In this document: piece by piece, positions 3,586 through 34,655 of the stretch
Layout of the letters: every line of letters begins with the position of its first letter
Position numbering within the stretch: the stretch's first letter is position 1
From: an uncultured Verrucomicrobiota bacterium
GTDB taxonomy: Bacteria; Verrucomicrobiota; Verrucomicrobiia; Limisphaerales; UBA9464
Direction of reading: 5' to 3'
DNA: 64,000 bases
NCBI GenBank assembly: GCA_903835555.1
Contig: CAILNN010000134.1
Coordinates: 13,182-77,181 of the forward strand
Translations under genes and position numbers: made by a program
Notes under the pieces: generated by a model
What the model was told of the DNA's origin: nothing
The model's database searches: none
What the model saw: only the letters and a program-made list of their open reading frames with translations

Positions 3586-4797
3586 TCAATTCTTCTTCTT
3601 TTTTGATGAATTGACCTTCGGATTGGCCGGACGAACAGGAAGTGAATCGAGGAATTTATCCAAATCTTCCTGCGACGTCAGTTTTGGGGTCAGCAGGGCT
3701 TTCTCGCGTTCCTCGGGTGTCAGCGCCGCTAGTTCCTGGGGAGCGGCAATGATGGTGGGGGTTAGGAAGATCATCAGCTCGGTCTTGACCTTCGACTTGA
3801 TGGTCCGCTTAAACGCCTGACCCAGCCAGGGAATATCGCCCAACAACGGGACCTTGCTTTCCGACTCACTGATGTCGGTTTGCATCAAACCGCCAATGAT
3901 GACGGTTTGACGGTCCGGAACCACCGCCACGGTATCGGCGTACCGCGAATTGATCACCGGTGCCGACGCACCGGAGGAAATGGGAACCCATTGCGATTGA
4001 TCTGCGAGCGACGAAGTCTCCGGATGAACAATCATTTCCACCATGCCGTCGCTGGTAATGAATGGCGTCACTTGTAGAATAATCCCGACGTTTTGATACG
4101 TGACCGTGTTGATTTGGCCATTTACCGCATCAAATCGGGTATTGCTGACCAGAGGAACTTGCTGACCCAAACTGATGGTCGCCGGTTGATTGTTTCGGGC
4201 CAGAATCGAAGGACGAGAAAGGACCTCCGCTTTTCCCGCTGTGGCAATGGCGCGCACGGCCACCTGATAGTCGGCTCCAAGAATCTGGTAAACTCCCGAA
4301 CCGGGCGGGACCGGCGTAAATTTCTGCACGTTTTGGCCCAAGGCATTCAGGGTGGCGTTGGACGAGGCGCTGCCCAATCCACCGGTTCCAAAAACATTGG
4401 CCACGGAACTGGTTGCGCCACCACCAAAGCCTCGGGCAACGCCGCCTTCCACTCCAACATCGGAAGTGTTGTTGTGGGTGATCTCGAGGAACACCACTTT
4501 GATGAGCACCTGGGGCCGAGGGTGATCCAACCTCTTGATCACTTCACCGATCTTCATGTTGGTATCTTCGTCGGTGACAACGATGACTTTCCGCGTTTCC
4601 GGGTCGATGGAAATCACGGCGTCGCCCACCAGGGTGTTGTTCGGGTAATCCCGAGTGCTCACACCGGAGGTACCCGTGGATCGTTGACCTTGACCGCCAC
4701 CGCCGCCGACTCCCTGAGCCTGTGCCCGTATTCCGCTCATCACCAGCCATCCGGCAATGCACGACGCCAATAGGCGACTAAATCCGTAAGTTTTCAT
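3586..4797 (-). CDS. gspD: T2SS secretin, C-terminal piece (half N-domain plus secretin core) with its own signal peptide
   Basis: The track ORF 3586..4803 starts on TTG. The ATG at 4797 gives MKTYGFSRLLASCIAGWLVMSGIRAQAQ. The secretin core runs PQVLIKVVFLEITHN...VLSRPSILARNNQPATISLGQQVP...VPLLGDIPWLGQAFK...ELMIFLTPTII. Confidence 0.85.
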   Translation of the reverse strand: MKTYGFSRLLASCIAGWLVMSGIRAQAQGVGGGGGQGQRSTGTSGVSTRDYPNNTLVGDAVISIDPETRKVIVVTDEDTNMKIGEVIKRLDHPRPQVLIKVVFLEITHNNTSDVGVEGGVARGFGGGATSSVANVFGTGGLGSASSNATLNALGQNVQKFTPVPPGSGVYQILGADYQVAVRAIATAGKAEVLSRPSILARNNQPATISLGQQVPLVSNTRFDAVNGQINTVTYQNVGIILQVTPFITSDGMVEMIVHPETSSLADQSQWVPISSGASAPVINSRYADTVAVVPDRQTVIIGGLMQTDISESESKVPLLGDIPWLGQAFKRTIKSKVKTELMIFLTPTIIAAPQELAALTPEEREKALLTPKLTSQEDLDKFLDSLPVRPANPKVNSSKKKKN

Positions 4798-4839
4798 ATT
4801 CAAATCTTTTTCTGAAACAATGCCTGTCGGGTGCTTTGC

Positions 4840-6399
4840 CTAATTGCCGCGTCCAATGCCGCCACCGCCGCCGCCGTTTCCAGAGCCGGTGCCAAGAGCG
4901 GAACCGCCAGTTCGGCTGCCGCTGGTGGTTGAGTTTTGTGAATTGGCGGACCGTGTGGACAGCGCACTCGTCTGGGTCGTGGTCGTCCGATTTCGGTTCT
5001 GATTCTGTGAATTCTCAAACAAGTTGCGGAGAACATCCTGGACCTGCACCGGATCAGCGTTTTGCAGGTCGTAAACGAAGACCTTCTGCTTTCGGGCGGG
5101 GTTGTTATCCAATTGTTCCACCATCGCCTGAATCTGGCCCATCAGGGCGTGAGCAGCGCTGACAATAACCGAGCTGGTCCGCGGATCGGCAACCGCGAGA
5201 ACTCGGGTCTTTTTCTTGGACATCGAACTCGTGTCACTCGTCGAGCCCCCACCCATGGCGCCTCCGCCGAATGGACCGCCGCCGAAACGGAACTGGCCAC
5301 GGGAATTGTCCGTCGTCTTGGTATCGTCTGGGAAAAGTCCACTCAAAATGGTCGCCATTTCCGATGGGTCGGCATATTTCAGCCGGAATACGCGCAATTC
5401 GGTGACATCTTGAATATTGGTATCCACGTTTCGGATGATTTCCTCAATGGAGGGCATGACATCCTCAGGAGCGTTGACCACCACTGAATTGCTGTGCTCG
5501 TCTGCGACAGCAATGACTTTCGCCGCGCTGGTTCGAGTTGGAGTGGCCGGTGTCCCCCCGCCGCCGCCACCACCGCCGAATCCACCCGGAAATCCGGGAA
5601 AACCACCACCGCCCCCCCGTCCGCCGTTGCGGTTGTTAGCGGAGGTGTCGGTCGAAGGAAATAAATCTTTCAATACCGATGCAACCTCCTTGGAATCTGC
5701 GTACTGCAACTGGAACACCCGAATCGAATTGGCACCGGTGGCGGAGTTATCCAATGCCCGGATGATTTCCGTGATGTGGCGGACACTGGTCTCGGTGTCG
5801 GTCATGATCAACGAGTTGCCCGCTTCGTTGGCAGTTAAATTGGCCTCGGATGGCAACAACGGCTTCAGATTCTCCGTCAATTGGGCTGCGTTAATGTATC
5901 GGATGGGGATGATTTGGGTGACCATTCCATCCGAACGGGGAATTCGCACCGGATCATTTCCAGTTTTCACGGGAATCTCCCGACGACGGGCGGCTTCCTT
6001 GCCCACAATGGTCAGCGTGCGCCCGTTCCGCAGGGCGGCGTATCCGTTCTTATTCAGGGCGGAATTGAGGATTTCCAGGGCCTCCTCCTGGCTGACCGGT
6101 TGGTTGCTCCACACGTCGATTTTTCCCTTCACCTCGGTTTCCAGCACGATGATGAATCCGGCTGCTTCGCTCAGGTAATTCAGCACCGTCTCCAAGGGAG
6201 CACCCCGGAAGTTCAGGCGTAATTCGCCGGGCGGGAGGTTGGATTCGCCGTTTCCAGACTCTGCTTTGGCAGTATCGGCTCGGGTCGGGACTGTTTCCGG
6301 AGTCGCCGCTGTTGCCTTATCCTGGGCCTGGAGGCGGCTGTTTGAAGCCAATGCCAAGCCAACGGTAACTAGCCCCAGGTAAATCGCTTTATTTTTCAT
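4840..6399 (-). CDS. gspD: T2SS secretin, N-terminal piece (signal peptide, N0, three and a half secretin_N repeats, no pore domain)
   Basis: 519 aa. Signal peptide MKNKAIYLGLVTVGLALASNSRLQA. N0-like LRLNFRGAPLETVLNYLSEAAGFIIV. Repeats follow the pattern xxRVFxLxYADxxE...V.AD..SNS..V.A (IPIRYINAAQL, IRVFQLQYADSKEV, LRVFRLKYADPSEM, KVFVYDLQNADPVQV). The ORF ends in a Gly-rich tail followed by TAG. Confidence 0.85.
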   Translation of the reverse strand: MKNKAIYLGLVTVGLALASNSRLQAQDKATAATPETVPTRADTAKAESGNGESNLPPGELRLNFRGAPLETVLNYLSEAAGFIIVLETEVKGKIDVWSNQPVSQEEALEILNSALNKNGYAALRNGRTLTIVGKEAARRREIPVKTGNDPVRIPRSDGMVTQIIPIRYINAAQLTENLKPLLPSEANLTANEAGNSLIMTDTETSVRHITEIIRALDNSATGANSIRVFQLQYADSKEVASVLKDLFPSTDTSANNRNGGRGGGGGFPGFPGGFGGGGGGGGTPATPTRTSAAKVIAVADEHSNSVVVNAPEDVMPSIEEIIRNVDTNIQDVTELRVFRLKYADPSEMATILSGLFPDDTKTTDNSRGQFRFGGGPFGGGAMGGGSTSDTSSMSKKKTRVLAVADPRTSSVIVSAAHALMGQIQAMVEQLDNNPARKQKVFVYDLQNADPVQVQDVLRNLFENSQNQNRNRTTTTQTSALSTRSANSQNSTTSGSRTGGSALGTGSGNGGGGGGIGRGN

Positions 6400-7162
6400 T
6401 TTTCAGCTCCTTTTCCCGCTTTTCCAACAAACGTTTTAAAATGTCACTTTCACCGCCGCCGCCCGAGTCCGAGGACGAACTTTCGCTCTTCTCGGATTTA
6501 TCCCCCTTGGAGGATGCAACTTCAAACCCTCCTGGGCTCGAGGTCTGCTGCCATTCGCCTTCTTCTTCGCGCTGCATGCCAGCCCCTACCTTGAGGGAAA
6601 TGGTATTGGTCCCAACCTGAATCTTGGCCCCGTCTTGGGTGATGGCTTTGACTTCAAATCCGGCTACCTTTTCACCCAGCTTCACACTCTTGCGATAGCT
6701 GCTTTCCGAGCCGTCAAAAAAAGCAAATGTTCCCTTGTAGTAAATCATCGTTCCCACCAAGGCGAACTTGTCGACTTTTGCCTTTTTCGGGCGTTCCCGG
6801 TTTTCCTCCCTGGAGGAAGACCGGGTGCGCGACGGACTAAAAATATTTCTGTCATTGATGATCTTGAAGGCCCCGTAGCTGAATTCATCGACGACGGCCA
6901 CGGTATTGGTTTGCACAACGCTGCCCTGTTTCCTCCCGGTTCCAGCCAACGAATTGGTTCCCACGGCGGCGGTTGCGTTAGTGACGGAGACGGCACGGAT
7001 ACTGTTCGTTGGTGCCGCCAGCCCGCTGGCTCCGTTGGTCGAGGAGGTTGCCGTGGAAGTTTCGGCTCCATACGCTGCCCCGACCAGAACAGCAACGCCG
7101 ACTATGACCGCCAGCGCGGCAGATGGACGTTCAATCAAGTCGGAGGAAAGTAGACTCTTCAT
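6389..7162 (-). CDS. Putative GspC/PilP-like periplasmic linker protein
   Basis: 257 aa with an N-terminal TM segment (AALAVIVGVAVLVGAAYG), a Ser/Thr-rich linker, IINDRNIFSP, and a small beta-domain (FALVGTMIYYKGTFAFFDGS...GEKVAGFEVKAITQDGAKIQ). It occupies the same position and has the same architecture as 25066..25779 in locus 2. The start makes an ATGA overlap with the upstream gene. Confidence 0.45.
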   Translation of the reverse strand: MKSLLSSDLIERPSAALAVIVGVAVLVGAAYGAETSTATSSTNGASGLAAPTNSIRAVSVTNATAAVGTNSLAGTGRKQGSVVQTNTVAVVDEFSYGAFKIINDRNIFSPSRTRSSSREENRERPKKAKVDKFALVGTMIYYKGTFAFFDGSESSYRKSVKLGEKVAGFEVKAITQDGAKIQVGTNTISLKVGAGMQREEEGEWQQTSSPGGFEVASSKGDKSEKSESSSSDSGGGGESDILKRLLEKREKELKNEK

Positions 7163-7698
7163 GGCGTTGTCACGTTGAGGAACAGGCCGCTGACTTGTAG
7201 AGCTAGGGACAATTGGCCGCCATCCCCGTCACGCGCTGTTAGCTCGATGCCGTCCACCTTTAGCGCCAGAGAATCCCGTTCGACCTCATAAAGAAATCGC
7301 GTGATGGATGCCAGATTACCCGAAGCATCCACTCGGCAATCGAGGGTCATGTAATCGTCGGCGGCATGTTTCCACTGCGGTTTGACCGAATTGACGCTGA
7401 CGCGGCTGGCTTGGGACCAATCATCAAATGCTTTCAAAACACGACCTTCCGCCGCCGACATGACGCCAGGGAGCGCGTTGGTGCGCATAGACTCCCATCG
7501 TGTTTTTAAAACTCGTTCCCGGGCAATCAACTGCTGTCCGTGGGTCACCGATTTGCGTAGGGTGGCTATTCGTTCGCTCCGGTCCTTCCAGCCGGCAATC
7601 ATTGGCGAAATGATCAGCCAGTCGCTTAGAAGCAACGCTGCACCCGCCGCCGCGACGGCAAGGAGTATTTTCTGGCGGTCTTGAGGATTGACGCTCAT
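7159..7698 (-). CDS. gspM: GspM/PilO-like inner-membrane assembly protein
   Basis: The track ORF starts on TTG at 7719. The ATG at 7698 makes an ATGA overlap with the gspL stop. Single TM segment (ILLAVAAAGAALLLSDWLIISPMIAG), then a coiled region and a C-terminal alpha/beta domain. Assignment rests on size and position after gspL. Confidence 0.5.
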   Translation of the reverse strand: MSVNPQDRQKILLAVAAAGAALLLSDWLIISPMIAGWKDRSERIATLRKSVTHGQQLIARERVLKTRWESMRTNALPGVMSAAEGRVLKAFDDWSQASRVSVNSVKPQWKHAADDYMTLDCRVDASGNLASITRFLYEVERDSLALKVDGIELTARDGDGGQLSLALQVSGLFLNVTTP

Positions 7699-9110
7699 GG
7701 CTGTGTGGACACTTCCCAATGGAAGTTGAAGCTGAATTGTAGGGGGGATTTTCCGCGTAGTTGATCGACCTGCACCTCGGTCACATCCCGGCTGGCTCTT
7801 AAGGCATCCAATACTTTAAGCAAAGCAGCCTGGTCGCGTGCTGTTCCTGAGCAGGTTACCACACCAGGGTCGTGAATTTCCAACGTCTTGGCTGTCACAC
7901 TGGAATCCTCGGGGAATGCCTCGGTAAGGCGGCGTAAGATGCGCAAGGTCTGGACTGAGTTGTCGTACCACGGACGAAATTTGCGGATATTTTGCTCGGT
8001 CTCCTCCAGTTCCCGAACGCGGGTTGAAATTTCCGACCAGCTCGTGCTCAGGCTGTGTAATTGGTACTCTTGGATGCCGATAGCGAGGAGGACGATGGCG
8101 GCTACACCACCAACGGCCGCTCCGACATAGGCTAGCTTTCGCGCCGAGTAACGAGCCGTCAGCCGCTGCCAGGCGGAGATTCGCGGGGGCAGAAATTCTA
8201 TCCGATGTGCACCAGGTGCCCAGTATTGAACCGCCACTGCACACGCCATCGCAGCGTCGGTGACGGCCCAGCATCCGGGCGTTTTGCCCTTGCTCTCAGG
8301 GGTCAATCCGGCGGAGGCCAGCAGTGGTGTTAGTTGCTCGGCAAGTGCGCGAGCGTCGGCTTCGGGACCGAGAGCGGAAAACAACTTCACTTCGGCTCGC
8401 AGAAGCGGCGGCAGTTGACCCAGGGTCACTCGTATCTCCCGCGCCAACATCGCGGGTTGCCATCGCGACTTCTCCTCGTCGGAGCGGGCTTCGGCACCCA
8501 GGCACCGCAAGCCCGCGATGCCGGACCCCGTGTCGACCAGCAAGACAATATTTTCCGCCTGCATCCAGAGTCGAATGCTGCCGCCAGTGTGTTGAGCGGC
8601 CCCCTCATTCCAAGCCAGCCCACCGACGGAAAACGAGAGTGGGTCGAGTCTCGCTTTTCGAAGCAGTGTGTCCAGCCGTTCTACGCGCGAGCGGGATACT
8701 GCCAACTGGAGGGCATAGGCCTGCCCGCCGATGGAAAAAGGGCAGCGGGAGATGATCAGTTCATCGACCGAGAACGGGAAGCCCCGCTCCGCATCCAATT
8801 CCAGAAAACTTTGCCGGTCTTCTTCAGATAAATCAGGCAATGCGGTGAGGCGGGTGAAGACCCACTCTGGAGGAAGACTGACCACGCAGCCTCGCTCGCG
8901 AATTCCCGCTGCCTCCAGTTGCTGCCGCAATTCCTGGCCAAGGACCTCCGGGTCACCGGTTTCCAGGGAGACACTGAAGGTTAAGGCCACGAAAGGCCCA
9001 CCCGGATTCCCGGAGGCCGCTTTGCGGGCCACGATTGCGTGCAAATGACCACTGTCAAACGACAGCACCACCAGCGCCTCGGCGCCCCGTCTTTGAATCC
9101 ACTGTTTCAT
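7695..9110 (-). CDS. gspL: GspL-like protein (PilM-like cytoplasmic domain, TM segment, PilN-like periplasmic domain)
   Basis: The probable start MKQWIQRRG at 9110 makes an ATGA overlap with the gspK stop. TM segment LAYVGAAVGGVAAIVLLAIGI. The C-terminal part (...ILRRLTEAFPEDSSVTAKTLEIHDPGVVTCSGTA...) resembles PilN/GspL ferredoxin-like domains. Confidence 0.6.
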   Translation of the reverse strand: MKQWIQRRGAEALVVLSFDSGHLHAIVARKAASGNPGGPFVALTFSVSLETGDPEVLGQELRQQLEAAGIRERGCVVSLPPEWVFTRLTALPDLSEEDRQSFLELDAERGFPFSVDELIISRCPFSIGGQAYALQLAVSRSRVERLDTLLRKARLDPLSFSVGGLAWNEGAAQHTGGSIRLWMQAENIVLLVDTGSGIAGLRCLGAEARSDEEKSRWQPAMLAREIRVTLGQLPPLLRAEVKLFSALGPEADARALAEQLTPLLASAGLTPESKGKTPGCWAVTDAAMACAVAVQYWAPGAHRIEFLPPRISAWQRLTARYSARKLAYVGAAVGGVAAIVLLAIGIQEYQLHSLSTSWSEISTRVRELEETEQNIRKFRPWYDNSVQTLRILRRLTEAFPEDSSVTAKTLEIHDPGVVTCSGTARDQAALLKVLDALRASRDVTEVQVDQLRGKSPLQFSFNFHWEVSTQP

Positions 9111-10453
9111 GGGATGGAAGCCAACGTCGGTAGATTTTGTCGCACCCGCCGCCCAAGCGGCCAACCGAGATGGGTAAGGTCCTGTCGAAAAACGATCGAC
9201 GGTGTCCCCGTCGACGTATCAAAAACAAATCGCTGTCGGCGAAAGCCACGTCCCGCTTTTCCAACCGCAGCAATATCCGCCGAAAACTGGTAGGTGCGCC
9301 CGGTAATATAAGGACCCGCCTGGACGGCACTGGCCTGGTCCAGAATGGAGGCAATCCACGACACCGTGGTCAATGCTCCCGCGTTTGCTTGGCGATAGGC
9401 TGCTACCGACGCGGCTTTGTCCGTGCCAATCCCAGGAATACAAGTCAGGACTGCCGTGCTGGCACTGTTGATATTGACCATACCTCGGAGGTAGGCCCCG
9501 TTGGTGATGGTTAAACTGTCTTCAATTAAGGAAAACTCGGTCGACGTGAAATTTCCACGAATGAACAGCTCGAGTGGGCTGGTGAGACGCTGCCCCACGC
9601 TTCGCATGATCTCCTGTGCTCGCGATGTGCCCAGTTGGGTTTCCAGCAGGGTCTGAAGCTGCGGGCGAAAATTGGGCGATGTCAGATTGACCCGTACCGT
9701 GCCGTCGGCATTCGTATTCGGCTGTTGGGAATAGACGGTAAAATATTCCCAAAAACCAGGGTCCAGCTTGCCGTCGCTGTTATCGTCCGGAGGCCTTGCG
9801 CTGCCATCGTTTTCATTCGGGTCCAATACCCCATTCAAATTGGAATCTTCCCCATAGAGAAAAGTCAGGGTCATCCCGTAAACCAGACGAAGTTCGTCGA
9901 CGGTTTCAAAATCACTGTTCTTGCAATGGTAGGGTGGATTCAGCCGCAGGTAGGTATCATCTTCAGCTCCACCCGTGGTCACGTCGCTATTGGTGTCGCG
10001 CCAATCGATGATGGCCGCAGCGATTTCCGGCGTCATTAGGGGCAATGCCTCGATCATGTCGATGGTTGCCGTATTCAGGTTCAGCTTGGATGCTTCATCG
10101 ATCAACGCAAAGTACGGTTCCTGAGGGGTAGGATTTTGTGGATCACGCCCAATCACCCAAAAGTGAGCATCACCAATCGCCACGCCTTCCTGTTTGTAGG
10201 TCAGGCGATCGGGAATGGTGCCGAATGTCGTGACATTCGTGGAAAGTAGATAGCCAACGTAACGAGTCGCCCCAACTAGCGCGTGATCGGACGCTAGGGC
10301 TCCGACCCGATTCTCCGACGCGCGCAGTTCCAAGACCATGGACTGTCCAAAATAAAGCCCTAATGCCACCAAACCCAGTACCACCCAGAGGGTGATGATC
10401 AAAGCCGCTGCATTCTGCCTTGGTGCCTTTCGGCTGTTGCGATTATACCTCAT
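9107..10453 (-). CDS. gspK: T2SS minor pseudopilin GspK
   Basis: 448 aa with an N-terminal hydrophobic helix lacking Glu5 (AAALIITLWVVLGLVALGL). GspK signature KLNLNTATIDMIEALPLMTPEIAAAIIDWRDTNSDVTTGGAEDDTYL...FETVDELRLVYGM. Confidence 0.85.
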   Translation of the reverse strand: MRYNRNSRKAPRQNAAALIITLWVVLGLVALGLYFGQSMVLELRASENRVGALASDHALVGATRYVGYLLSTNVTTFGTIPDRLTYKQEGVAIGDAHFWVIGRDPQNPTPQEPYFALIDEASKLNLNTATIDMIEALPLMTPEIAAAIIDWRDTNSDVTTGGAEDDTYLRLNPPYHCKNSDFETVDELRLVYGMTLTFLYGEDSNLNGVLDPNENDGSARPPDDNSDGKLDPGFWEYFTVYSQQPNTNADGTVRVNLTSPNFRPQLQTLLETQLGTSRAQEIMRSVGQRLTSPLELFIRGNFTSTEFSLIEDSLTITNGAYLRGMVNINSASTAVLTCIPGIGTDKAASVAAYRQANAGALTTVSWIASILDQASAVQAGPYITGRTYQFSADIAAVGKAGRGFRRQRFVFDTSTGTPSIVFRQDLTHLGWPLGRRVRQNLPTLASIP

Positions 10454-11223
10454 GGCTGACCTCCCGAGGTAGACGATTGATTGGTTACTGATGTCAGGAT
10501 TACCGGCGAAATCAACTGGACCACGGGTCGGGATTGACGCCCGGTGGTCCGCCGAACACCCGAAGGGGCAAGCTCTTGTTTCTTAGACAACTCAATTTCA
10601 ACTTTGATCGCCTTGGGTAGCAAGGTGACGTCGTTGGTGGAATTCCAAGTGGTTTTCCATTGTGTCCCATCGTAGTAGGTGAACTCAACCCGCTCCACTC
10701 CGCCCATGAGTCGTTGCTCTTCCGGTGTATCGGTGTTCAATGGAAGCAAGTTGCGACTGACCATACGAAACAGGTCCATCCCCGCACTACCAATTTGGTT
10801 CGTGGGCGGGCGCAGATAATAAGTGACACACTGGATATCACCCCAGGGGGCATAATCGGTTGCAATTCCGTTGCCGATATACCAGGGCGGCCCGACCTGT
10901 TTTCCTGATACCTGATTCAGACTGATCGTATCGGTCAGCAGGTTGCTGCTCAGGATTCCACCCGGTTGAACCAATCCACTCAAATCGTGCCGAATGACGT
11001 CCAGCGCGTGCTGGATTGGCAGACCCCCTTCCACAAGGGAAACGGTTCGCTCACGCAACCGAAAGGCACCGAAAAAGACGCTGGTTATCGCCGCCATGAC
11101 CAAGGACACCAGCACGATCGCCAGCAGCAGCTCGATCAGCGTGAATCCGCGCCCACCTTGCAGGATAATCGTGCGGGACCGACTTCGGCAGAGAAATGAG
11201 GAGCTATCGAGTCCTGGAGTCAT
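10450..11223 (-). CDS. gspJ: T2SS minor pseudopilin, GspJ-like
   Basis: Prepilin motif GGRG/FTLIELLLAIVLVSLV. The start MTPGLD at 11223 makes an ATGA overlap with the gspI stop. Assignment rests on size and its position between I and K. Confidence 0.65.
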   Translation of the reverse strand: MTPGLDSSSFLCRSRSRTIILQGGRGFTLIELLLAIVLVSLVMAAITSVFFGAFRLRERTVSLVEGGLPIQHALDVIRHDLSGLVQPGGILSSNLLTDTISLNQVSGKQVGPPWYIGNGIATDYAPWGDIQCVTYYLRPPTNQIGSAGMDLFRMVSRNLLPLNTDTPEEQRLMGGVERVEFTYYDGTQWKTTWNSTNDVTLLPKAIKVEIELSKKQELAPSGVRRTTGRQSRPVVQLISPVILTSVTNQSSTSGGQP

Positions 11224-11621
11224 AGCTGGGTGGTATCCACCACCGTGCACAGTCGGACGTCGTACGATTTTCCCCGGGTCAGGTAGAAGACCTGAAGGGA
11301 GAGCATTTTCAGAGAGTCCTTTTCCCAGGCTTGGGTCTTGAGCTGCCAGCGGTAGGATTCGTCACCCTCGATGGCAGTGCCATTGCCGGTTCGCTGCCAT
11401 TGGCCAGTGACCACCAATTCATTCAGAATGCGATCGGCAACCCGGAGTGCGACCGATTTTCGCTCGGCAACCTCTCCGGCCAAACTGGCGATCTGAAGGC
11501 CCCGAACCGCCACGGGAATGACGATGGCCACGACCAAGAGTGCAGCAAGTGCCTCCACCAGCGTGAATCCGGCGCGACGATTAATAACGCGCAGTGCCGG
11601 TGATGTTGGTGCGGAGGTCAT
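11220..11621 (-). CDS. gspI: T2SS minor pseudopilin, GspI-like
   Basis: The ATG at 11621 gives MTSAPTSPALRVINRRAG/FTLVEALAALLVVAIVIP. The mature part is small (~110 aa), as in GspI. The start overlaps the gspH 3' end by 41 nt. The longer track ORF (to 11765) is probably an artefact. Confidence 0.6.
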   Translation of the reverse strand: MTSAPTSPALRVINRRAGFTLVEALAALLVVAIVIPVAVRGLQIASLAGEVAERKSVALRVADRILNELVVTGQWQRTGNGTAIEGDESYRWQLKTQAWEKDSLKMLSLQVFYLTRGKSYDVRLCTVVDTTQL

Positions 11622-12210
11622 AGGTGACACGGTTGAGCGAGGGCGTGAGGTACAGCGTTCCCGCCCTGGAATTACGGTTGCCGGTCGAGGGATTCTGTTC
11701 TCGAAAGCGAATCTGCGTGGGGCTGCTGTCAGCAATAAATCCATCGGGCTGAAAACGAATGGCATAGGCTGTCCGCCCGGGCCGTAAACCAGACGTCATC
11801 GGCAAGGTCATCGGCACAGGTGCTGAATTGACACGTGCAGCATCGACTTCTAGGAAGACATCGCGGGAAAGCGGATAGGCGACCGCATGGGTGTCTTGAG
11901 CCGCATAGGTAGAGTCTTCGGCCAAGCCATAGGCCCTCTGCTGGGGATCAATCCACAAAATCATCGGTGTTCCTTCGGAGACTGCTCGTTCGCGTCCGTA
12001 GCGAATGAGTGATGAAAGACGTCGTGCCTCTCCATCGACCGATCGGCCCCGGAAGAAGTTGCCGAGAGACGGAGCCATCACGGACATCAAAATGACGAGC
12101 ATAGCCATGACCAGGATGAGCTCGATCAGCGTGAAGGCCCCGGGGTCGGAGAGCTTAGCGCTTGTTGGTTTGCCAGTTGGCGACATCATCATCTCCTCCC
12201 ACGCGTCCAT
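11581..12210 (-). CDS. gspH: T2SS minor pseudopilin, GspH/FimT-like
   Basis: Prepilin motif DPGA/FTLIELILVMAMLVILMSV, followed by GEARRLSSLIRYGRERAVSEG, typical of the GspH/FimT family. The start is ambiguous (ATGs at 12210, 12192, 12189, 12186). Confidence 0.65.
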   Translation of the reverse strand: MDAWEEMMMSPTGKPTSAKLSDPGAFTLIELILVMAMLVILMSVMAPSLGNFFRGRSVDGEARRLSSLIRYGRERAVSEGTPMILWIDPQQRAYGLAEDSTYAAQDTHAVAYPLSRDVFLEVDAARVNSAPVPMTLPMTSGLRPGRTAYAIRFQPDGFIADSSPTQIRFREQNPSTGNRNSRAGTLYLTPSLNRVTYDLRTNITGTARY

Positions 12211-12628
12211 CAGGTCCCATGGACATCAAATCATATGAAGTGGGATTGTGTTTCCCGGGGCATTCATAAATGTAGGCATTGCCCCACGGGTCGAGTGGAA
12301 TCTCACTCTTCAGATACGGTCCCTTCCAGCCGACGACGTTGCCCGGTTGCTGGACCAAATCATTCAGGCCCCCTTTTCCGGTCGGGTATCGACCGGTATC
12401 GATCTCAAAGGAGTCCAACGCGGTCCCGAAAGTGGCTATTTGTGATTCTGCGGCGGTCTTGCGCGCCTGCTCGGTTTTTCCGGCGAACCTGGGTACCACT
12501 ATGGCGGCAAGAATGCTCAAGATTACGAGCACGAGCAGCAGTTCGATCAGGGTGAATGCTCCTTTGCTGGCACCGATTCGGGGTGCTCGATGGAAGAAGT
12601 TGGTTTTCATAATGGGCGACAGCTTCAT
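12155..12628 (-). CDS. gspG: T2SS major pseudopilin GspG
   Basis: SKGA/FTLIELLLVLVILSILAAIVVPRF, plus the GspG C-terminal signature WKGPYLK...PLDPWGNAYIYECPGKHNPTSYDLMSMGPDGRVGGDDD. The start makes an ATGA overlap with the gspF stop. Confidence 0.9.
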   Translation of the reverse strand: MKLSPIMKTNFFHRAPRIGASKGAFTLIELLLVLVILSILAAIVVPRFAGKTEQARKTAAESQIATFGTALDSFEIDTGRYPTGKGGLNDLVQQPGNVVGWKGPYLKSEIPLDPWGNAYIYECPGKHNPTSYDLMSMGPDGRVGGDDDVANWQTNKR

Positions 12629-13908
12629 TTGATGTGGTCTTGAAGAGAAAAAATTGGCATTACCATGCCAATGACAATCGTGCCGATAAAGGCGGCAATG
12701 AAAAACAACATGAGCGGTTCTGCCAAGGCCACCGCCGTCTTAAGCTGGCGGTCGAGATCGCCTTCGGTGACATTGGCAATTCGCACCAACTCCCCGTCCA
12801 GACGCCCGCTCTCCTCCGCCACCGAAATCATTTCCAGGGTCGAACCTGAAAAGAGCGCTCGGGAGTCGGCCAAACTGGCACCGAGTTGTTTTCCTTCTTT
12901 CACACGATCAATCGAGTGAGAGACCGCATCGACAAGTATTTGGTTACCAATGGATCGCCGGGCTACGTTTAGGCCGTTGACCAATGGGACACCCGCTCCG
13001 AGAAGTGTCCCGAGCATGCGACAAAACCGCGCCATGGCGAATTGCGCCACCAATGGGCCTAAGACCGGTGCCTTGAGGATTGATCCCTCCCAGGCACGCC
13101 GTCCGGCGGTTGAAAGAAACCAGGTCCGCAGCGAAAACCCTCCAATTCCCAATCCAATCAGCAACAGAAAGCCATAGTGGCGCATCAACTCGCTCGTGCC
13201 GACGATGATTCGAGTCAAGAGAGGAAGTTCCGCTCCAAATCCAGCGAACATCATCTTGAATCGCGGAATGAAAAAGACCAAGAGGAAAACCAGAACGGCG
13301 AGGGCAAGAAATAGCAGAATAATCGGATAAAGGAGTGCCGCCGTGACCTTCCCTTTCATCTCTTTTTCTCGTGCCTGGAAATCGGCGATTTGGCCGAGCA
13401 CGACGTCCAAAAATCCTCCCGTTTCTCCCGCTTCGACCATGGCGACATAGACCCGCGGAAAAACCTCCGGTGACCGCGACATCGCATCGGCCAGCGTCAA
13501 ACCGTCGACGACATAATCGTGCACCTTTTTCCACTGCACAGATGCGACCGGGGATCCCGCTTCGCGGGTTAAAATCACCAACGCACGGCTGAGCGGGACT
13601 CCCGCTGAAAGCAGACTGGACAATAATCGGGTGAAATTCTCTAGCGCACGCGCCGAAACCTTCCCACTTCCACCAAACAACGGGGCAGGGGCGGTCTTGG
13701 CTGGGGGTGGAGTCGGAACTCCATTTGTCGCAGGTGCCTTCGGACGCGCCTTCTTGGGTGCCGCCGAGGCCCCATTTTCGGCCACGCGGATCGGTTTCAG
13801 TCCGCGACCTTCGATCAGGCGCATCGCTTCCACCCGGTTGGGCGCGTCAATGGTCCCTTCGGTGACTTTGCCCGAAGACTCCATGGCGCGATAGTTAAAG
13901 GTTCCCAT
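12625..13908 (-). CDS. gspF: T2SS inner-membrane platform protein GspF
   Basis: The probable start MGTFNYRAMESSGK at 13908 lies 4 nt after the gspE stop. There are two T2SSF repeats (FTRLLSSLLSAGVPLSRAL...GETGGFLD and FCRMLGTLLGAGVPLVNGL...AEESGRLD). The 67-codon 5' extension in the track overlaps gspE. Confidence 0.9.
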   Translation of the reverse strand: MGTFNYRAMESSGKVTEGTIDAPNRVEAMRLIEGRGLKPIRVAENGASAAPKKARPKAPATNGVPTPPPAKTAPAPLFGGSGKVSARALENFTRLLSSLLSAGVPLSRALVILTREAGSPVASVQWKKVHDYVVDGLTLADAMSRSPEVFPRVYVAMVEAGETGGFLDVVLGQIADFQAREKEMKGKVTAALLYPIILLFLALAVLVFLLVFFIPRFKMMFAGFGAELPLLTRIIVGTSELMRHYGFLLLIGLGIGGFSLRTWFLSTAGRRAWEGSILKAPVLGPLVAQFAMARFCRMLGTLLGAGVPLVNGLNVARRSIGNQILVDAVSHSIDRVKEGKQLGASLADSRALFSGSTLEMISVAEESGRLDGELVRIANVTEGDLDRQLKTAVALAEPLMLFFIAAFIGTIVIGMVMPIFSLQDHIK

Positions 13909-13912
13909 GGAA

Positions 13913-15655
13913 TTAGCTCGTGGGTGCTCCCGAGGTGGCAACAATTTCCGCTGCCGCATCCGCCGCGTCTTCTGCCGCTTGGTCTTTCGTGACCCGCAAC
14001 ACTTCTTCCGGGGTGGTGATTCCCTCGCGAACCAGGCGCCAGCCATCTTCCGCCAGCATGCGTACACCGCCCCGGCGTGCGGCTTCCCGAATTTCTCCGC
14101 TCGAAGCATTACGTAGCATCAATCTACGGATGCTTTGCGTACTATTCATCCATTCGAAGATGCCGCGGCGTCCGTGATAGCCGGTATTGCGGCACTCCCG
14201 GCATCCGACCGATTTGTAAAGAACTGTTTCCGGTGCGAATCCTAGTTGCTGCTTGAGTGCATGAGCCGTTGAACTGGTATCGATGGCCCGGCACTGGCTG
14301 CACAACACACGAACCAATCGCTGTGCGAGCACCGCTTCCAGTGAGGAAGCGACCAGATAGGGCTCCACGCCCATGTCCACCAATCGGGTTAACGCTCCGG
14401 GAGCATCATTGGTATGCAAGGTGGATAGCACTAAGTGACCAGTAAGCGATGCTTGAACGGCAATTTGCGCCGTTTCTCGGTCACGAATTTCGCCGATGAG
14501 TAAGACGTCGGGGTCGTGGCGTAGGATCGCGCGAAGACCGCGGGCGAAGGTTAGGCCCGATTTTTCCGAGACTTGAATCTGGTTGATCCCGCGCAACTGG
14601 TATTCGATCGGGTCTTCAATCGTAATGATCTTACGAACCGCGTCGTTGATGGCATTGAGCGCGGTATAGAGGGTCGATGTCTTGCCGCTACCGGTCGGTC
14701 CAGTGACCAAAATGATCCCGTGTGGCAAGGCCAGCACTCGTTGGAAAGAGGCCAAGTCACGCGGGTCCATACCCAGTTGCCCCATTCCTCGTAGCGTGGC
14801 ATTCTGTCGGAGCAAACGCAGCACCACAGCCTCCCCGTGAAGCATGGGGATCACCGACACACGGATATCCACTTCCGCGTCATCGAGCCGAATCTTGATA
14901 CGACCGTCCTGAGGCAAGCGCTTTTCCGCGATGTTCAGGTGGCTCAGAATCTTGACGCGGGAAACAATGGCTGGCTGAAAACGCTTAATCTGGGGCGGGA
15001 CCGGCACTTCCTGCAAAACGCCGTCGATTCGGTAACGAATCCGCAATTCGTTCTCAAACGGCTCCAGGTGGATATCGGACGCACGGAGTTCAATGGCGTC
15101 CCGTAAAATCTGATTAACGAAACGAATGATCGAGGCATCTTCCGCCGCCTCGTCCAAATTGGTGTTCTCATCGTTTTCGTCTTCGACAACCTGAAAGGAG
15201 GCTTCTTCACCTAGAGTGCCAAGCGTGTCTGCACCGACACCCAACCATTTTTTAAGTTCCCGTTGAATGGCTTCGCGGGGGGCCAGGACAGGCTGGAGAC
15301 GTAATCCGGTTACGGTCTTGAGTCCGTCCAAACCGGTCGTCGAAAATAACCGACAGGTGGCGACCTCTACTCGACCATTCTCTCGTCGCAGCGGAAGCAG
15401 CTCTTCCTTCAGCAGTATCCGAGCCGGAAATAGGGCCAGCAGGTCCTTTTCGGGTCGGATATCATCGAGCGGATTGAATGGAACAAAGTATTCCTGTGCG
15501 ACCCACTTGAGAACGCTGGCTTCGCTCTCGCCCACCGGCCCTTCACCATTTGTCCCATTGTCTGACGCCCGGCTGATCGCCGGGATATCGGCTGCCGAGA
15601 CCTGAAATTCCGCCACCATGCGATCGAGCAAGGTTTCAGCAGTGGTCTCAGCCAT
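13913..15655 (-). CDS. gspE: T2SS ATPase GspE
   Basis: 580 aa. Walker A GPTGSGKTST, Walker B/Asp box DVLLIGEIRDRETA, His box GHLVLSTLHTNDA, tetracysteine CSQC...CREC, and an N-terminal T2SSE_N-type domain. Confidence 0.95.
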   Translation of the reverse strand: MAETTAETLLDRMVAEFQVSAADIPAISRASDNGTNGEGPVGESEASVLKWVAQEYFVPFNPLDDIRPEKDLLALFPARILLKEELLPLRRENGRVEVATCRLFSTTGLDGLKTVTGLRLQPVLAPREAIQRELKKWLGVGADTLGTLGEEASFQVVEDENDENTNLDEAAEDASIIRFVNQILRDAIELRASDIHLEPFENELRIRYRIDGVLQEVPVPPQIKRFQPAIVSRVKILSHLNIAEKRLPQDGRIKIRLDDAEVDIRVSVIPMLHGEAVVLRLLRQNATLRGMGQLGMDPRDLASFQRVLALPHGIILVTGPTGSGKTSTLYTALNAINDAVRKIITIEDPIEYQLRGINQIQVSEKSGLTFARGLRAILRHDPDVLLIGEIRDRETAQIAVQASLTGHLVLSTLHTNDAPGALTRLVDMGVEPYLVASSLEAVLAQRLVRVLCSQCRAIDTSSTAHALKQQLGFAPETVLYKSVGCRECRNTGYHGRRGIFEWMNSTQSIRRLMLRNASSGEIREAARRGGVRMLAEDGWRLVREGITTPEEVLRVTKDQAAEDAADAAAEIVATSGAPTS

Positions 15656-25041: not shown

Positions 25042-25065
25042 ACGGCGTGTCGTATTCAGGGCAAA

Positions 25066-25779
25066 TTACTTGGGCAACAGGCTTTCTCCACCTAGACCTT
25101 CAAAGATCATCAATTCCTTCTTCTCACCAGCGACTTCAACCAGGACACGATTGGTTCCGATTCGGAGTAGTTTCAGCCCATCAGAATCGCCACCTTCTCG
25201 TAGCAGGGACATTTGGCCATTGGGGGTGCGAAGGAAGGCATCGTGACCGGCAATGCCCAGCAGGGCCATTGGGGGAGGGTGGAATACGGGCGCGAGTAAT
25301 TCACTTTGCGTGATTTTATCGATTCTCGCCTGGATAATGGGCGAAATGGCTGTCGGCGGATGCGCTGAGACTCCCGCTCCCGACGTTCTATTTCCGGGTT
25401 GACCAACCTTGAGTTCCGCCGGGGGTGGCGCTGGCTTTACAATCTGTTCTGTTTGAGACGAACTGTTTGTCACCCGGCTGGGCGGGTTGTTTGATCGTGT
25501 CGGATCGCTTTTCGTGACATTCGTGATGGATGTGGTGGCTGGGGCCACTCGATTGGGCTGTCCAGAATCGGCCATTTTAGTCAATTCCGGCAGTTTTGCG
25601 GACCCAGTAGACGGATGGACATCAGCAGGGGGTTCCTCGGGATGCCAGTGAGGCGCAGAAGGAACTTCCAGATTTGCCAGGGGATTGGATCGATTTCGGA
25701 GCAAGAGTATTTGCAACATCAGAGCAACTCCGAGCACTCTCGGTAGCTTTTGGAAAATAGTCTTTAGATGATCACGCAT
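25066..25779 (-). CDS. Putative GspC/PilP-like periplasmic linker protein
   Basis: The ATG at 25779 gives MRDHLKTIFQKLPRVLGVALMLQILLL, a TM segment. It is followed by a Pro/Ser/Thr-rich linker and a C-terminal beta-domain LLGIAGHDAFLRTPNGQMSLLREGGDSDGLKLLRIGTNRVLVEVAGEKKEL. It occupies the same slot as 6389..7162. Confidence 0.45.
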   Translation of the reverse strand: MRDHLKTIFQKLPRVLGVALMLQILLLRNRSNPLANLEVPSAPHWHPEEPPADVHPSTGSAKLPELTKMADSGQPNRVAPATTSITNVTKSDPTRSNNPPSRVTNSSSQTEQIVKPAPPPAELKVGQPGNRTSGAGVSAHPPTAISPIIQARIDKITQSELLAPVFHPPPMALLGIAGHDAFLRTPNGQMSLLREGGDSDGLKLLRIGTNRVLVEVAGEKKELMIFEGLGGESLLPK

Positions 25780-26341
25780 GAGGCACCTCCCGGCTATCCC
25801 ACTGATCGTAGTCAAGTAAGATGAGTGAAACGCTAATTTTAAGCATGCCTGGACGCATGGGATCGGATGAGAATTGGACCGTGTCCAGAATAATGGGGAA
25901 ACCCAGACTTCCCAGTCGATGGAGGAACGTAGTAAGGGAAGTGACTTGCCCGGCGGCCTCCAGTTGAATGCTACCTAGCTCCCGATCACTACCGCGTGCC
26001 ACAGTTTCGCGGATGGGCCCCATCTGCAGGCCTCCCTGCGTGGCCGCCTGCTGAATGGCCGCACTGGCCCTTCCCACCAATTTCGGTTTGGATATTTGGG
26101 CCGGATCCAATTGAGCCGCATCCATCAAACGATGGAGGCGGATCACCCGGGATGAGTAGAGGTCTATCCGCGCCCGCTGTTCATCGGCCTGCCGCCGGAG
26201 TTCGAGATACGCGGTTCTTTTCGAGCCCAGAATTTGAAGGGTTTTCCATCCGCCGAATAGGAGTAGGTACGCCCCAAGTCCCAGCCCGGCGTAGCGGACG
26301 GTTCGACGGTCGCGGGCGGTCATTTCGGGTAGTCGTATCAC
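25772..26341 (-). CDS. gspM: GspM/PilO-like inner-membrane assembly protein
   Basis: 189 aa with a single TM segment (YAGLGLGAYLLLFGGW), a coiled region and an alpha/beta C-terminus. The start makes an ATGA overlap with the gspL stop. Confidence 0.5.
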   Translation of the reverse strand: MIRLPEMTARDRRTVRYAGLGLGAYLLLFGGWKTLQILGSKRTAYLELRRQADEQRARIDLYSSRVIRLHRLMDAAQLDPAQISKPKLVGRASAAIQQAATQGGLQMGPIRETVARGSDRELGSIQLEAAGQVTSLTTFLHRLGSLGFPIILDTVQFSSDPMRPGMLKISVSLILLDYDQWDSREVPHA

Positions 26342-30953: not shown

Positions 30954-30959
30954 CGCATT

Positions 30960-31388: not shown

Positions 31389-31438
31389 CCTACAGGTAGA
31401 AATTGTCCGACAGTGTAAATACATATTGAATTCAGGAG

Positions 31439-34323: not shown

Positions 34324-34655
34324 AGGCGAAGCATTCTTCAACAGGCCTTCTTTCCAATACCATTCTCCAATGCGATAGCGATTCTGGTTCCAACTTTGAT
34401 TGCTCCATCGGTCAAACGTAGGCCACCGCGAATGCCGACTGCTCGTTTTCCGATGGGAGTAAGCAAAGGATTTAGACAAATGACCTACAAATGCGCGACA
34501 AGGATCATGCTGGAAAACCCCGCACACGAGATAAAGTTTCCGGGAAGCCCGACGAGTCTGGCAATTTCGACAAGGAGTCCGCGAAATGGCTCAATCTTTT
34601 TGCAATCGGCCAAGGTTTAGTTTCTAGCCGCCGCAACCCGACAATTCTATACTAC

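What the first reader, a model, noticed from the sequence alone, without database searches (positions are those of the whole stretch)
3586..6399. Locus-1 secretin is cut inside one structural domain by a single in-frame TAG, and the downstream piece carries its own signal peptide
ORF 4840..6399 has a signal peptide, an N0 domain and three complete secretin_N repeats. It ends ...GNGGGGGGIGRGN-TAG. The next ORF is in the same reading frame. Only the TAG and 12 sense codons (AKHPTGIVSEKD) lie between them. The upstream ORF stops after the first half of a fourth repeat (KVFVYDLQNADPVQVQDVLRNLF, i.e. beta1-alpha1, plus a Gly/Ser/Asn-rich loop). The downstream ORF supplies the missing half (VISIDPETRKVIVVTDEDTNMKIGEVIKRLD, i.e. 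beta2-beta3-alpha2), fused directly to the pore domain (PQVLIKVVFLEITHN...VPLLGDIPWLGQAFK). The intact 903-aa paralog (22330..25041) has this same domain uninterrupted: TFRTTLKYAKATDVANSLNILFAK, a long loop, VRVVPDHRSNSLMISANVHFFPQVLKLIEELD, then PQVLIEARIVEV. Yet the downstream ORF opens with MKTYGFSRLLASCIAGWLVMSGIRAQAQ, which has the n-region, hydrophobic core and AxA site of a Sec signal peptide. There are three options. It could be a gene fission in which the gate-proximal N-domain must be rebuilt in trans from two separately exported chains. It could be a stop-codon read-through product of ~935 aa, close in size to the paralog. Or it could be a recent nonsense lesion. I am not aware of a described secretin split within an N-domain.
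Basis: partly seen in the sequence, partly recalled or inferred. Interest (0 to 1): 0.78.

Follow-up and report, generated by a model that had tools for sequence, protein, structure and literature searches.

The report
Conserved two-gene type II secretin
In a large group of Verrucomicrobiota the outer-membrane pore protein (secretin) of a type II secretion system is made from two adjacent genes, each with its own export signal. The break falls in the middle of one small structural domain, which the two chains probably rebuild together. It is not a sequencing error, a recent mutation or a stop-codon read-through.

Summary
ORF A (4840..6399, minus strand, 519 aa) has N0, three Secretin_N domains and a β1-α1 half-domain, and ends at TAG. 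ORF B (3586..4797, 403 aa) starts 42 nt later in the same frame. It has a signal peptide, a Gly-rich loop, a β2-β3-α2 half-domain and the secretin pore domain.

The shared frame is a coincidence. In 72 related Verrucomicrobiota genomes the same two genes sit next to each other. The stop of A is TAA, TGA or TAG, and B lies in all three frames relative to A (26/30/16). Every B starts with a signal peptide ending A|Q. The window's own TAG junction is identical in three independent assemblies. These results refute the read-through and recent-lesion readings.

The halves are complementary. A's tail matches Pfam Secretin_N positions 1-25 and B's head matches 31-69. Joined, they pass the Pfam threshold (41.5 bits) and align end to end with an intact N-domain (hhalign 98%). 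Both halves are as conserved as intact domains.

The best reading is an old, selected gene fission in a long disordered loop, with the pore-proximal N-domain rebuilt in trans. The rebuilding is inferred, not shown.

Precedents exist: the RhcC1/RhcC2 split secretin of T3SS, and mitochondrial GspDN2/GspDN3 half-domain proteins. I therefore call it a new variant of a known kind.

The parts
4840..6399 (-). ORF A: the N-terminal secretin chain (519 aa). It has a signal peptide, N0, three complete Secretin_N domains, a β1-α1 half-domain and a low-complexity tail, and ends with stop TAG at 4840-4842.
   Evidence: It aligns collinearly with residues 76-485 of the unsplit homologue P0162. The identical protein is found in several independent assemblies.
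6322..6399 (-). Predicted Sec signal peptide of A (residues 1-26, ...SRLQAQ|DK).
   Evidence: Read from the sequence. Heuristic only; no SignalP was run.
6022..6216 (-). N0 domain of A (residues 62-126).
   Evidence: Pfam PF21305, 53 bits.
5017..5091 (-). Orphan N-terminal half (β1-α1) of the last N-domain: KQKVFVYDLQNADPVQVQDVLRNLF (A residues 437-461).
   Evidence: It matches Secretin_N profile positions 1-25 of 69. Mean identity across 63 relatives is 0.65 with no gaps, the same as the intact N3 halves. hhalign supports the same assignment.
4843..5016 (-). Asn/Gln/Ser/Thr/Gly-rich C-terminal tail of A (residues 462-519). This is the proximal part of the ancestral inter-strand loop.
   Evidence: Low conservation (0.34). 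Unsplit homologues have an 80-110 aa Gly/Ser/Asn-rich loop at this position.
4798..4839 (-). 42-nt intergenic spacer between the TAG of A and the ATG of B. It happens to be a multiple of three.
   Evidence: In relatives the spacer is usually 4-80 nt, in any frame.
3586..4797 (-). ORF B: the C-terminal secretin chain (403 aa from ATG 4797; stop TGA 3586-3588).
   Evidence: The best 120 homologues are all 312-462 aa (mostly about 400) with PF00263 (one also has a Secretin_N hit). The AF2 model matches T2SS GspD/PulD structures at Foldseek E about 1e-20.
4723..4797 (-). Predicted Sec signal peptide of B (residues 1-25 or 1-27; ...GIRA|QAQG or AQA|QG).
   Evidence: Conserved in 73 of 73 sequences: positive n-region, hydrophobic run of 8-17 residues, A at -1 in 70 of 73, Gln at +1 in 73 of 73. 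AF2 predicts a helix at residues 6-22.
4624..4722 (-). Gly-rich loop of mature B plus the conserved R-x-Y-P-N-N-T-x-V-G motif (residues 26-58). This is the distal part of the ancestral loop.
   Evidence: Y51 is invariant. AF2 predicts the segment as disordered when B is modelled alone.
4525..4623 (-). C-terminal half (β2-β3-α2) of the split N-domain: DAVISIDPETRKVIVVTDEDTNMKIGEVIKRLD (B residues 59-91).
   Evidence: It matches Secretin_N positions 31-69 of 69. AF2 gives strands 61-65 and 70-74 and a helix 77-91 at pLDDT about 75-80. It aligns with the second half of N3 in E. coli GspD 5WQ7.
3748..4515 (-). Secretin pore domain of B (residues 95-350, starting at PQVLIKVVFLE).
   Evidence: Pfam PF00263, 165 bits, and the fold search.
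6389..15655 (-). Upstream genes of the same T2SS operon: GspE (13913-15655), F, G, H, I, J, K, a PilM/N-like protein (the L equivalent), an M-like protein, and a 257-aa protein with no Pfam match.
   Evidence: Pfam scan.
22330..25041 (-). Intact 903-aa paralogous secretin of a second T2SS operon (22330-34527). It is used as the internal unsplit comparison.
   Evidence: It is 29% identical to B over B residues 32-379.

Best explanation
This is an ancient gene fission of a type II secretion secretin that selection has kept. It is conserved across a large clade of Verrucomicrobiota (Limisphaerales/Pedosphaera-type genomes).

Shown:
- The ancestral single gene is now two adjacent, co-oriented genes.
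- The break lies in the long disordered Gly/Ser/Asn-rich loop between α1 and β2 of the last, pore-proximal N-domain.
- The downstream chain has its own N-terminal signal-peptide-like segment in every relative examined.

Inferred:
- Both chains are exported by Sec, and signal peptidase I cuts them. Mature B would then start with Gln.
- B forms the outer-membrane pore ring.
- A forms the periplasmic N0-N1-N2-N3 rings that contact the inner-membrane platform.
- The two are joined non-covalently when β1-α1 from A's tail packs against β2-β3-α2 from B's head, completing one βαββα ring-building domain per protomer.

The in-frame TAG in this genome is an ordinary stop. The shared reading frame is a coincidence.
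For: 1. Conservation of the split. The 120 best homologues of B are 312-462 aa (mostly about 400) and carry PF00263; one also has a Secretin_N hit. In 72 loci from different species an A homologue ends a median of 27 nt before B.
2. No read-through signature. B is in frame 0/+1/+2 in 26/30/16 loci. The stop of A is TAA 31, TGA 27, TAG 14. Two loci have about 0.8 kb between the genes.
3. Not an artefact. Three independent assemblies have an identical junction. The A cluster has six members of 507-519 aa.
4. The halves complement each other. Pfam places A's tail at Secretin_N positions 1-25 and B's head at 31-69. The fusion covers 1-69 at 41.5 bits, above the cut-off. hhalign of the joined profile against the intact N3 domain gives 98.1% probability, E 8e-14, over template columns 4-102 of 103.
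5. Collinearity with the unsplit homologue P0162 (895 aa). A aligns to its residues 76-485 and stops exactly after β1-α1. B aligns to residues 574-864. An 88-residue loop lies between.
6. Purifying selection on both halves. Mean identity is 0.65 for A's half and 0.59 for B's half, against 0.63-0.68 for the intact N3 halves and 0.30-0.41 for the loops.
7. The signal peptide is conserved in 73 of 73 sequences.
8. Context and fold. The genes sit in a T2SS operon with GspE to GspM. The AF2 model of B matches GspD/PulD.
9. [quoted passage not shown] That gives a reason for keeping both halves.
Against: - No direct evidence shows that the two chains associate or that the domain refolds in trans.
- The only model of the joined segment was run without an alignment and has low confidence (pLDDT 45).
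- Signal-peptide cleavage is inferred from motifs, not from SignalP or proteomics.
- No expression data are available.
- The 72 loci are related lineages, not independent samples.
- A crude neighbour-joining tree puts only 30 of 43 short-type representatives in one pure clade. The others are gene fragments or fall outside it, so a single origin is not established.
Confidence: 0.75

Rival explanations
1. Stop-codon read-through: the in-frame TAG is partly decoded, giving a single secretin of about 935 aa, similar in size to the paralog.
For: In this window A and B share a frame, with only TAG and 14 sense codons between them. The summed size is close to the 903-aa paralog.
Against: The frame is not conserved: 0/+1/+2 in 26/30/16 of 72 relatives, close to random. 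All three stop codons are used and spacer length varies. In four loci the genes abut or overlap, and in two loci 0.8 kb intervenes. TAG also ends other long open frames in this window. A fused chain would carry an internal hydrophobic signal-like segment that would interfere with export. Every relative keeps an ATG plus a signal peptide on B.
Confidence: 0.02
2. Recent nonsense lesion, pseudogene or assembly error: locus 1 is decaying and the intact paralog does the work.
For: An intact paralogous T2SS operon lies 17 kb away. A single stop separates the ORFs.
Against: The same split is seen in every evaluable relative from 53 to 95% identity. Both genes remain open and conserved, including the orphan half-domains. 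The junction is identical in three independent assemblies. B has a conserved start codon and signal peptide, which a fresh lesion would not create.
Confidence: 0.01
3. Real two-gene split, but no domain rebuilding. A and B act as separate rings, held together by other contacts or by partner proteins, or work independently. The half-domains are kept for other reasons, for example ring-ring packing or binding of the 257-aa neighbour.
For: Trans complementation has not been shown. The AF2 model of B alone folds the β-β-α head at pLDDT about 75-80 without A. The split family has its own conserved loop motifs, R-x-Y-P-N-N-T in B and L-x-x-R in A's tail, which could make a different kind of contact.
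Against: The two halves match the two non-overlapping, complementary parts of one Pfam domain, and jointly match an intact domain end to end. A lone β1-α1 or β-β-α piece would expose its hydrophobic core. Both halves are conserved as strongly as intact domains.
Confidence: 0.2

Closest known systems
Canonical T2SS secretin GspD/PulD/XcpQ (PDB 5WQ7, 6HCG, 5WLN)
   Same: The domain inventory and order are the same: signal peptide, N0, Secretin_N repeats, secretin pore domain and a helical C-terminal tail. It sits in a GspE-to-GspM operon. The AF2 model of B matches these structures at Foldseek E about 1e-20. B's head aligns with the second half of N3 in 5WQ7.
   Different: The protein is made as two polypeptides rather than one. 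The break is inside the last N-domain. It is not at the flexible N2-N3 linker, which is the natural hinge of the 'bipartite' secretin (PMC5646246). The second chain has its own signal peptide.
RhcC1/RhcC2 (NolW/Y4xJ) and HrcIIC1/HrcIIC2 split secretins of Rhc-type T3SS
   Same: Separate genes encode the N-terminal and C-terminal parts of the secretin, and the arrangement is conserved across a lineage. The functional meaning is unknown there too (PMC3574062, PMC3973906).
   Different: Those belong to a T3SS, not a T2SS. The two genes lie apart in the cluster, are sometimes on opposite strands, and are regulated differently. Here they are 42 nt apart in one operon. I could not determine where the Rhc break falls relative to domain borders, or whether RhcC2 has its own signal peptide.
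Mitochondrial T2SS-derived system (miT2SS): GspD, GspDL, GspDN1-3 of Naegleria, jakobids and malawimonads
   Same: GspD is split into several polypeptides. GspDN3 corresponds only to the N-terminal half of a Secretin_N domain and GspDN2 only to the C-terminal half (PMC8134430). This is the same kind of mid-domain split.
   Different: That system is eukaryotic and highly diverged. It lacks N0, and its pore protein is truncated inside the C-domain. The half-domains are free-standing small proteins rather than the ends of the two main chains. No specific relationship to the Verrucomicrobiota family was tested.
TadB/TadC fission of the inner-membrane platform in Tad/Epd pili
   Same: It is another conserved gene fission of a core component of the type IV filament superfamily. 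Its authors attribute it to a stop codon arising inside an ancestral gene (PMC6668835).
   Different: The break there falls between two complete duplicated domains, not inside a fold, and no new export signal was needed.

Membership tests
Secretin superfamily (GspD-type, T2SS) | C-terminal secretin pore domain (Pfam PF00263) | tested here: met
   ORF B scores 165 bits against profile positions 2-168 of 169. The fold search returns PulD/GspD at E about 1e-20.
Secretin superfamily (GspD-type, T2SS) | N0 domain followed by Secretin_N (ring-building) repeats | tested here: met
   ORF A has N0 (53 bits) and three Secretin_N stretches (143 bits in total). These lie on a different polypeptide from the pore domain.
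Secretin superfamily (GspD-type, T2SS) | N-domains and pore domain on one polypeptide, with an intact pore-proximal N3 domain in cis | tested here: not met
   A stop codon, a spacer, a new start and a signal peptide lie inside the last N-domain, in the window and in 72 of 72 evaluable relatives.
Secretin superfamily (GspD-type, T2SS) | Encoded with T2SS core genes (GspE ATPase, GspF platform, GspG-K pseudopilins, L/M) | tested here: met
   Pfam hits to T2SSE, T2SSF, T2SSG, GspH, T2SSI, T2SSJ, T2SSK, PilM/N-like and T2SSM_b for the genes at 7159-15655.
Secretin superfamily (GspD-type, T2SS) | Forms a 12-15-mer gated outer-membrane channel | not testable with these tools
   This needs biochemistry or cryo-EM.
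Split secretin of Rhc-type T3SS (RhcC1/RhcC2) | N- and C-terminal secretin parts encoded by separate genes | tested here: met
Split secretin of Rhc-type T3SS (RhcC1/RhcC2) | Part of a T3SS (rhc/hrc) gene cluster, with the genes located apart | tested here: not met
   The context is a T2SS operon and the genes are adjacent.
miT2SS GspDN-type half-domain proteins | Separate polypeptides that each carry only one half of a Secretin_N domain | tested here: met
   A's tail matches profile positions 1-25 and B's head matches 31-69. hhalign agrees.
miT2SS GspDN-type half-domain proteins | Eukaryotic, mitochondrion-targeted, no N0 domain, truncated C-domain | tested here: not met
   This is a bacterial operon with N0 present and a full C-domain.
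Programmed stop-codon read-through / recoding site | Downstream ORF kept in the same frame, with a conserved stop identity and context | tested here: not met
   Frames are 26/30/16. Stops are TAA 31, TGA 27, TAG 14. Spacers are not conserved.
Pseudogene / nonsense lesion | Lineage-restricted interruption with relaxed constraint on the pieces | tested here: not met
   The split is clade-wide and both pieces are conserved.
Sec (SPase I) signal peptide on ORF B | Positive n-region, hydrophobic h-region, small residues at -3/-1 | tested here: met
   The n-region has net charge of at least +1 in 97% of sequences. The h-run is 8-17 residues. Position -1 is A in 70 of 73 and -3 is A in 44 of 73. This is a heuristic; SignalP was not available.
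Sec (SPase I) signal peptide on ORF B | Actual cleavage and export | not testable with these tools
   This needs N-terminomics or reporter fusions.

The most novel reading that the evidence does not exclude
The split N-domain could be a functional two-piece joint rather than a neutral fission. In that reading the pore ring (B) and the periplasmic channel (A) are exported and oligomerised separately, perhaps on either side of the peptidoglycan. The secretin would become competent only when the halves of the N3-like domain snap together. Such a natural system would show that the 'thermodynamic seal' domain of secretins can be supplied in trans. A more remote possibility is that the same architecture underlies the unexplained half-domain proteins GspDN2 and GspDN3 of the mitochondrial T2SS.
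Probability: 0.15. Interest if true: 0.8.

Novelty: new variant of a known kind. Interest (0 to 1): 0.6.

Why it matters
Secretins are treated as single-chain building blocks of T2SS, T3SS, type IV pili and filamentous-phage export. The pore-proximal N3 domain is regarded as part of the pore module and as needed to stabilise the prepore.

Here, hundreds of Verrucomicrobiota genomes may share a secretin cut in the middle of that domain, with a second signal peptide added. (557 related stretches were found, and 72 of 72 evaluable loci are split.) This is a natural protein-fragment-complementation experiment.

- Covalent continuity of the domain would not be required.
- The two modules could be expressed and imaged separately, which gives a handle on the order of assembly.
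- It would give a bacterial counterpart to the puzzling half-domain GspDN proteins of mitochondria and to the unexplained RhcC1/RhcC2 split.

It also matters for annotation. Automated pipelines may score such systems as lacking a complete secretin. For this organism they also mis-start ORF B at Met20, which removes its signal peptide.

Tried and rejected
- AlphaFold2 on the joined A-tail plus B-head as a single sequence gave pLDDT 45. Only its secondary structure (β-α...β-β-α) is usable.
I did not try to get round this restriction.
- A profile search of A2 against PDB sequences aligned B's head cleanly to the second half of GspD N3. A's tail was placed on the β1-α1 of an earlier N-domain, so that mapping is only partly informative.
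- I fetched pNGR234a 455-505 kb to find where RhcC1/RhcC2 are split. The T3SS cluster is not in that stretch, and I did not pursue it.
- A neighbour-joining tree of 128 secretin domains, made to test for a single origin, was inconclusive. Many short sequences are gene fragments.
- Wholesale TAG reassignment or pyrrolysine: rejected, because TAG also ends other long open frames here.
- Split intein or protein splicing: rejected. The C-terminal residue of A varies (N, R, F, P, Q), mature B starts with Gln, and no intein-like sequence is present.
- Lipoprotein signal on B: rejected, because there is no conserved Cys at +1.
- The promoter and terminator scan found nothing between A and B, which fits co-transcription, but this is weak evidence.
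- Four literature searches found no description of a split T2SS secretin in Verrucomicrobiota. The library is incomplete.
Full report
**1. Observation**

On the minus strand, ORF A (4840..6399, 519 aa) ends ...GIGRGN-TAG, with the TAG at 4842-4840. The same frame continues with AKHPTGIVSEKD, then TTG (4803), AAT and ATG (4797). It then runs on into ORF B, which is 403 aa from the ATG and stops at 3586.

Pfam finds N0 and three Secretin_N stretches in A and only the Secretin pore domain in B. The 903-aa paralog at 22330..25041, also on the minus strand, has N0, five Secretin_N and Secretin in one chain. TAG ends 9 of 45 long open frames in the window, including the paralog's, so the codon is not reassigned. 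The gap is 12 codons to the TTG and 14 to the ATG.

**2. Is the junction real?**

The exact A protein occurs on several contigs from different metagenome samples. Its 90%-identity cluster has six members of 507-519 aa. Three independent assemblies (L082-L084) have the same TAG and the same spacer as the window. They differ by one SNP just before the ATG, so they are not copies of one assembly. An assembly error is excluded.

**3. Is the split conserved?**

I searched 5.8 billion proteins with B. The best 120 hits (55-100% identity) are 312-462 aa, mostly about 400, and carry the Secretin domain; only one also has a Secretin_N hit.

A scan of one genome per species found 557 related stretches, and I kept 80 loci. 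All come from Verrucomicrobiota-type MAGs, although a few records carry other labels.

Both genes could be placed in 72 of these loci. In each, an A homologue with N0 and Secretin_N domains ends a median of 27 nt before the ATG of a B homologue. The spacing is usually 4-80 nt. The genes abut or overlap in four loci, and about 0.8 kb intervenes in two.

- The stop of A is TAA in 31 loci, TGA in 27 and TAG in 14.
- B lies in frame 0, +1 or +2 relative to A in 26, 30 and 16 loci.
- The spacers are not conserved in sequence.

This pattern is what two ordinary neighbouring genes give. It is incompatible with required read-through or with a recent lesion.

In a search of 1.84 billion cluster representatives, short forms fill the ranking down to about 44% identity. 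Full-length secretins of 800-1000 aa appear only at about 40-44% identity.

**4. Are the two ends really halves of one domain?**

Four lines of evidence say yes.

- Pfam. Taken alone, A's tail (ARKQKVFVYDLQNADPVQVQDVLRNLF...) matches Secretin_N profile positions 1-25 of 69. B's head (...GDAVISIDPETRKVIVVTDEDTNMKIGEVIKRLD...) matches positions 31-69. Neither reaches the family threshold alone (17.7 and 19.8 bits). Joined without the loops they match positions 1-69 at 41.5 bits, above the 28.2-bit cut-off.
- Profile-profile comparison. A profile of 37 joined tail-plus-head pairs aligns end to end (template columns 4-102 of 103) with the profile of the intact preceding N-domain. hhalign gives 98.1% probability and E 8e-14.
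- An unsplit relative. Against P0162 (895 aa), A aligns to residues 76-485 and stops exactly after ...LKNGQAVKLQVVLNTLF. B aligns from residue 574 (...GEVFVVADEDTNSLLVTTASKFREQVKQIIEELDRPVPQVLIKV). Between them P0162 has an 88-residue Gly/Asn/Ser-rich loop. Other unsplit relatives have loops of 80-110 residues at the same place.
- Solved structures. Against PDB sequences, B's head aligns with the second half of N3 and the start of the C-domain of E. coli GspD 5WQ7.

AlphaFold2 on B with 94 homologues predicts a signal-peptide helix (6-22), a disordered stretch (24-54), strands at 61-65 and 70-74, and a helix at 77-91 (pLDDT about 75-80), followed by the barrel. The model matches PulD and GspD structures at Foldseek E about 1e-20.

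**5. Selection**

Across 63 full-length relatives, mean identity to the window is as follows:

| Region | Mean identity | Gaps |
|---|---|---|
| A's orphan β1-α1 half | 0.65 | none |
| Intact N3, first half | 0.68 | none |
| Intact N3, second half | 0.63 | none |
| Loops | 0.30-0.41 | present (fraction 0.07-0.36) |
| B's β2-β3-α2 half | 0.59 | none |

A vestigial half-fold would not be kept like this.

**6. The signal peptide of B**

All 73 sequences start with a positively charged n-region (net charge of at least +1 in 97%) and an uncharged hydrophobic run of 8-17 residues. Position -1 is A in 70 of 73, and -3 is small or aliphatic (A in 44). Position +1 is always Gln.

There is no conserved lipobox Cys. 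This fits a cleavable Sec/SPase I signal. SignalP and experimental data are lacking. Public gene calls for this organism start B at Met20 and so miss the signal.

**7. Context**

A and B are the last two genes of a T2SS operon. The operon holds GspE, F, G, H, I, J and K, a PilM/N-like L equivalent, an M-like protein and a 257-aa protein with no Pfam match. A second, paralogous T2SS operon with the intact secretin lies at 22330-34527. B is only 29% identical to that paralog, so the split gene is not a recent copy of it.

**8. Mechanism**

Shown:
- There are two conserved genes.
- The half-domains are complementary.
- B has a conserved signal-like N-terminus.
- The genes sit in a T2SS operon.

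Inferred:
- Both chains are exported by Sec and cleaved.
- B builds the outer-membrane pore ring.
- A builds the periplasmic rings and carries the N0 domain. In GspD that domain contacts GspC (established knowledge, cited in PMC8134430).
- The two are tied together protomer by protomer when A's β1-α1 completes the fold of B's β2-β3-α2.

Published work places N3 structurally with the C-domain and gives it a role in prepore stabilisation. It puts the flexible hinge of the 'bipartite' secretin between N2 and N3 (PMC5646246). The break here is therefore not at the natural hinge but inside the module that stabilises the pore. That is the unusual point. It predicts that B needs A for stable multimers.

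The ancestral long disordered loop explains why a break at this site could be tolerated. How B obtained a signal peptide is unknown. One possibility, purely a conjecture, is tandem duplication followed by complementary truncation, which would retain the ancestral signal.

**9. Comparison with known cases**

- Split secretin genes are a recognised hallmark of Rhc-type T3SS (rhcC1/nolW plus rhcC2, and hrcIIC1/hrcIIC2 in Pseudomonas syringae). The reason for the split is unknown (PMC3574062, PMC3973906).
- In the mitochondrial T2SS-derived system, GspD is split into several polypeptides. GspDN3 corresponds to the N-terminal half of a Secretin_N domain and GspDN2 to the C-terminal half (PMC8134430).
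- The large survey of type IV filament systems describes the TadB/TadC fission but no secretin fission (PMC6668835).
- Four full-text searches found no description of a split T2SS secretin in Verrucomicrobiota.

So this is a new variant of a known kind: bacterial, T2SS, with adjacent genes, a break inside the pore-proximal N-domain, and a second signal peptide.

**10. Verdict**

Interest is moderate to high. The finding is a clean, clade-wide natural split of a domain that is thought to act in cis. It is testable with multimer modelling, proteomics and co-expression.

Noticed in passing
Proteins P0202, P0205, P0223, P0225, P0230, P0232, P0237, P0245, P0251, P0256: Among the nearest unsplit homologues of ORF B are giant predicted proteins of 3,400-5,500 aa. 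Only their last 350 or so residues are a secretin domain (33-42% identity). This is the opposite extreme to the split form.
   Followed up: no
L050:2768-3577 and L055 (about 805 nt between the A and B homologues): In two relatives about 0.8 kb of GC-rich DNA sits between the two secretin genes. It has internal repeats and no convincing ORF, and looks like an inserted repeat element. Both genes remain intact.
   Followed up: partly
window 4741-4797 (B residues 1-19); loci L082-L084: Public gene calls for this organism start ORF B at Met20 (384 aa, P0002). This removes the signal peptide. Relatives are called with the full N-terminus.
   Followed up: yes
window 5422-5730 (A residues 224-326) compared with the relatives' A proteins: About a quarter of relatives lack the second Secretin_N domain of A (A is 430-460 aa; gap fraction 0.27). 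The number of periplasmic rings therefore varies within the split family.
   Followed up: partly
window 22330-34527, minus strand: A second, paralogous T2SS operon (GspE, F, K and others) ends in an intact 903-aa secretin with five Secretin_N domains. The genome therefore carries a split and an unsplit system side by side.
   Followed up: partly
window 4720-4722 (B residue 26) and all 72 relatives: The residue after the predicted signal-peptidase site of B is Gln in 73 of 73 sequences, usually followed by Phe. This raises the possibility of an N-terminal pyroglutamate or a specific recognition motif.
   Followed up: no
window 4642-4671 (B residues 43-52) and 5050-5060 (region of A residues 447-450); alignment A2: The split family has its own conserved motifs inside the otherwise variable loops. 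B has R-x-Y-P-N-N-T-x-V-G just before β2 (Y51 invariant). A's tail has L-x-x-R (Arg invariant) about 20 residues after α1. The unsplit homologues I inspected lack both motifs. They may be extra docking elements.
   Followed up: partly
window 6389-7162, minus strand: A 257-aa protein with no Pfam match lies just upstream of A and overlaps it by 11 nt. A 249-aa counterpart occupies the same position in the paralogous operon. It may be a GspC/N-like or pilotin-like partner.
   Followed up: no
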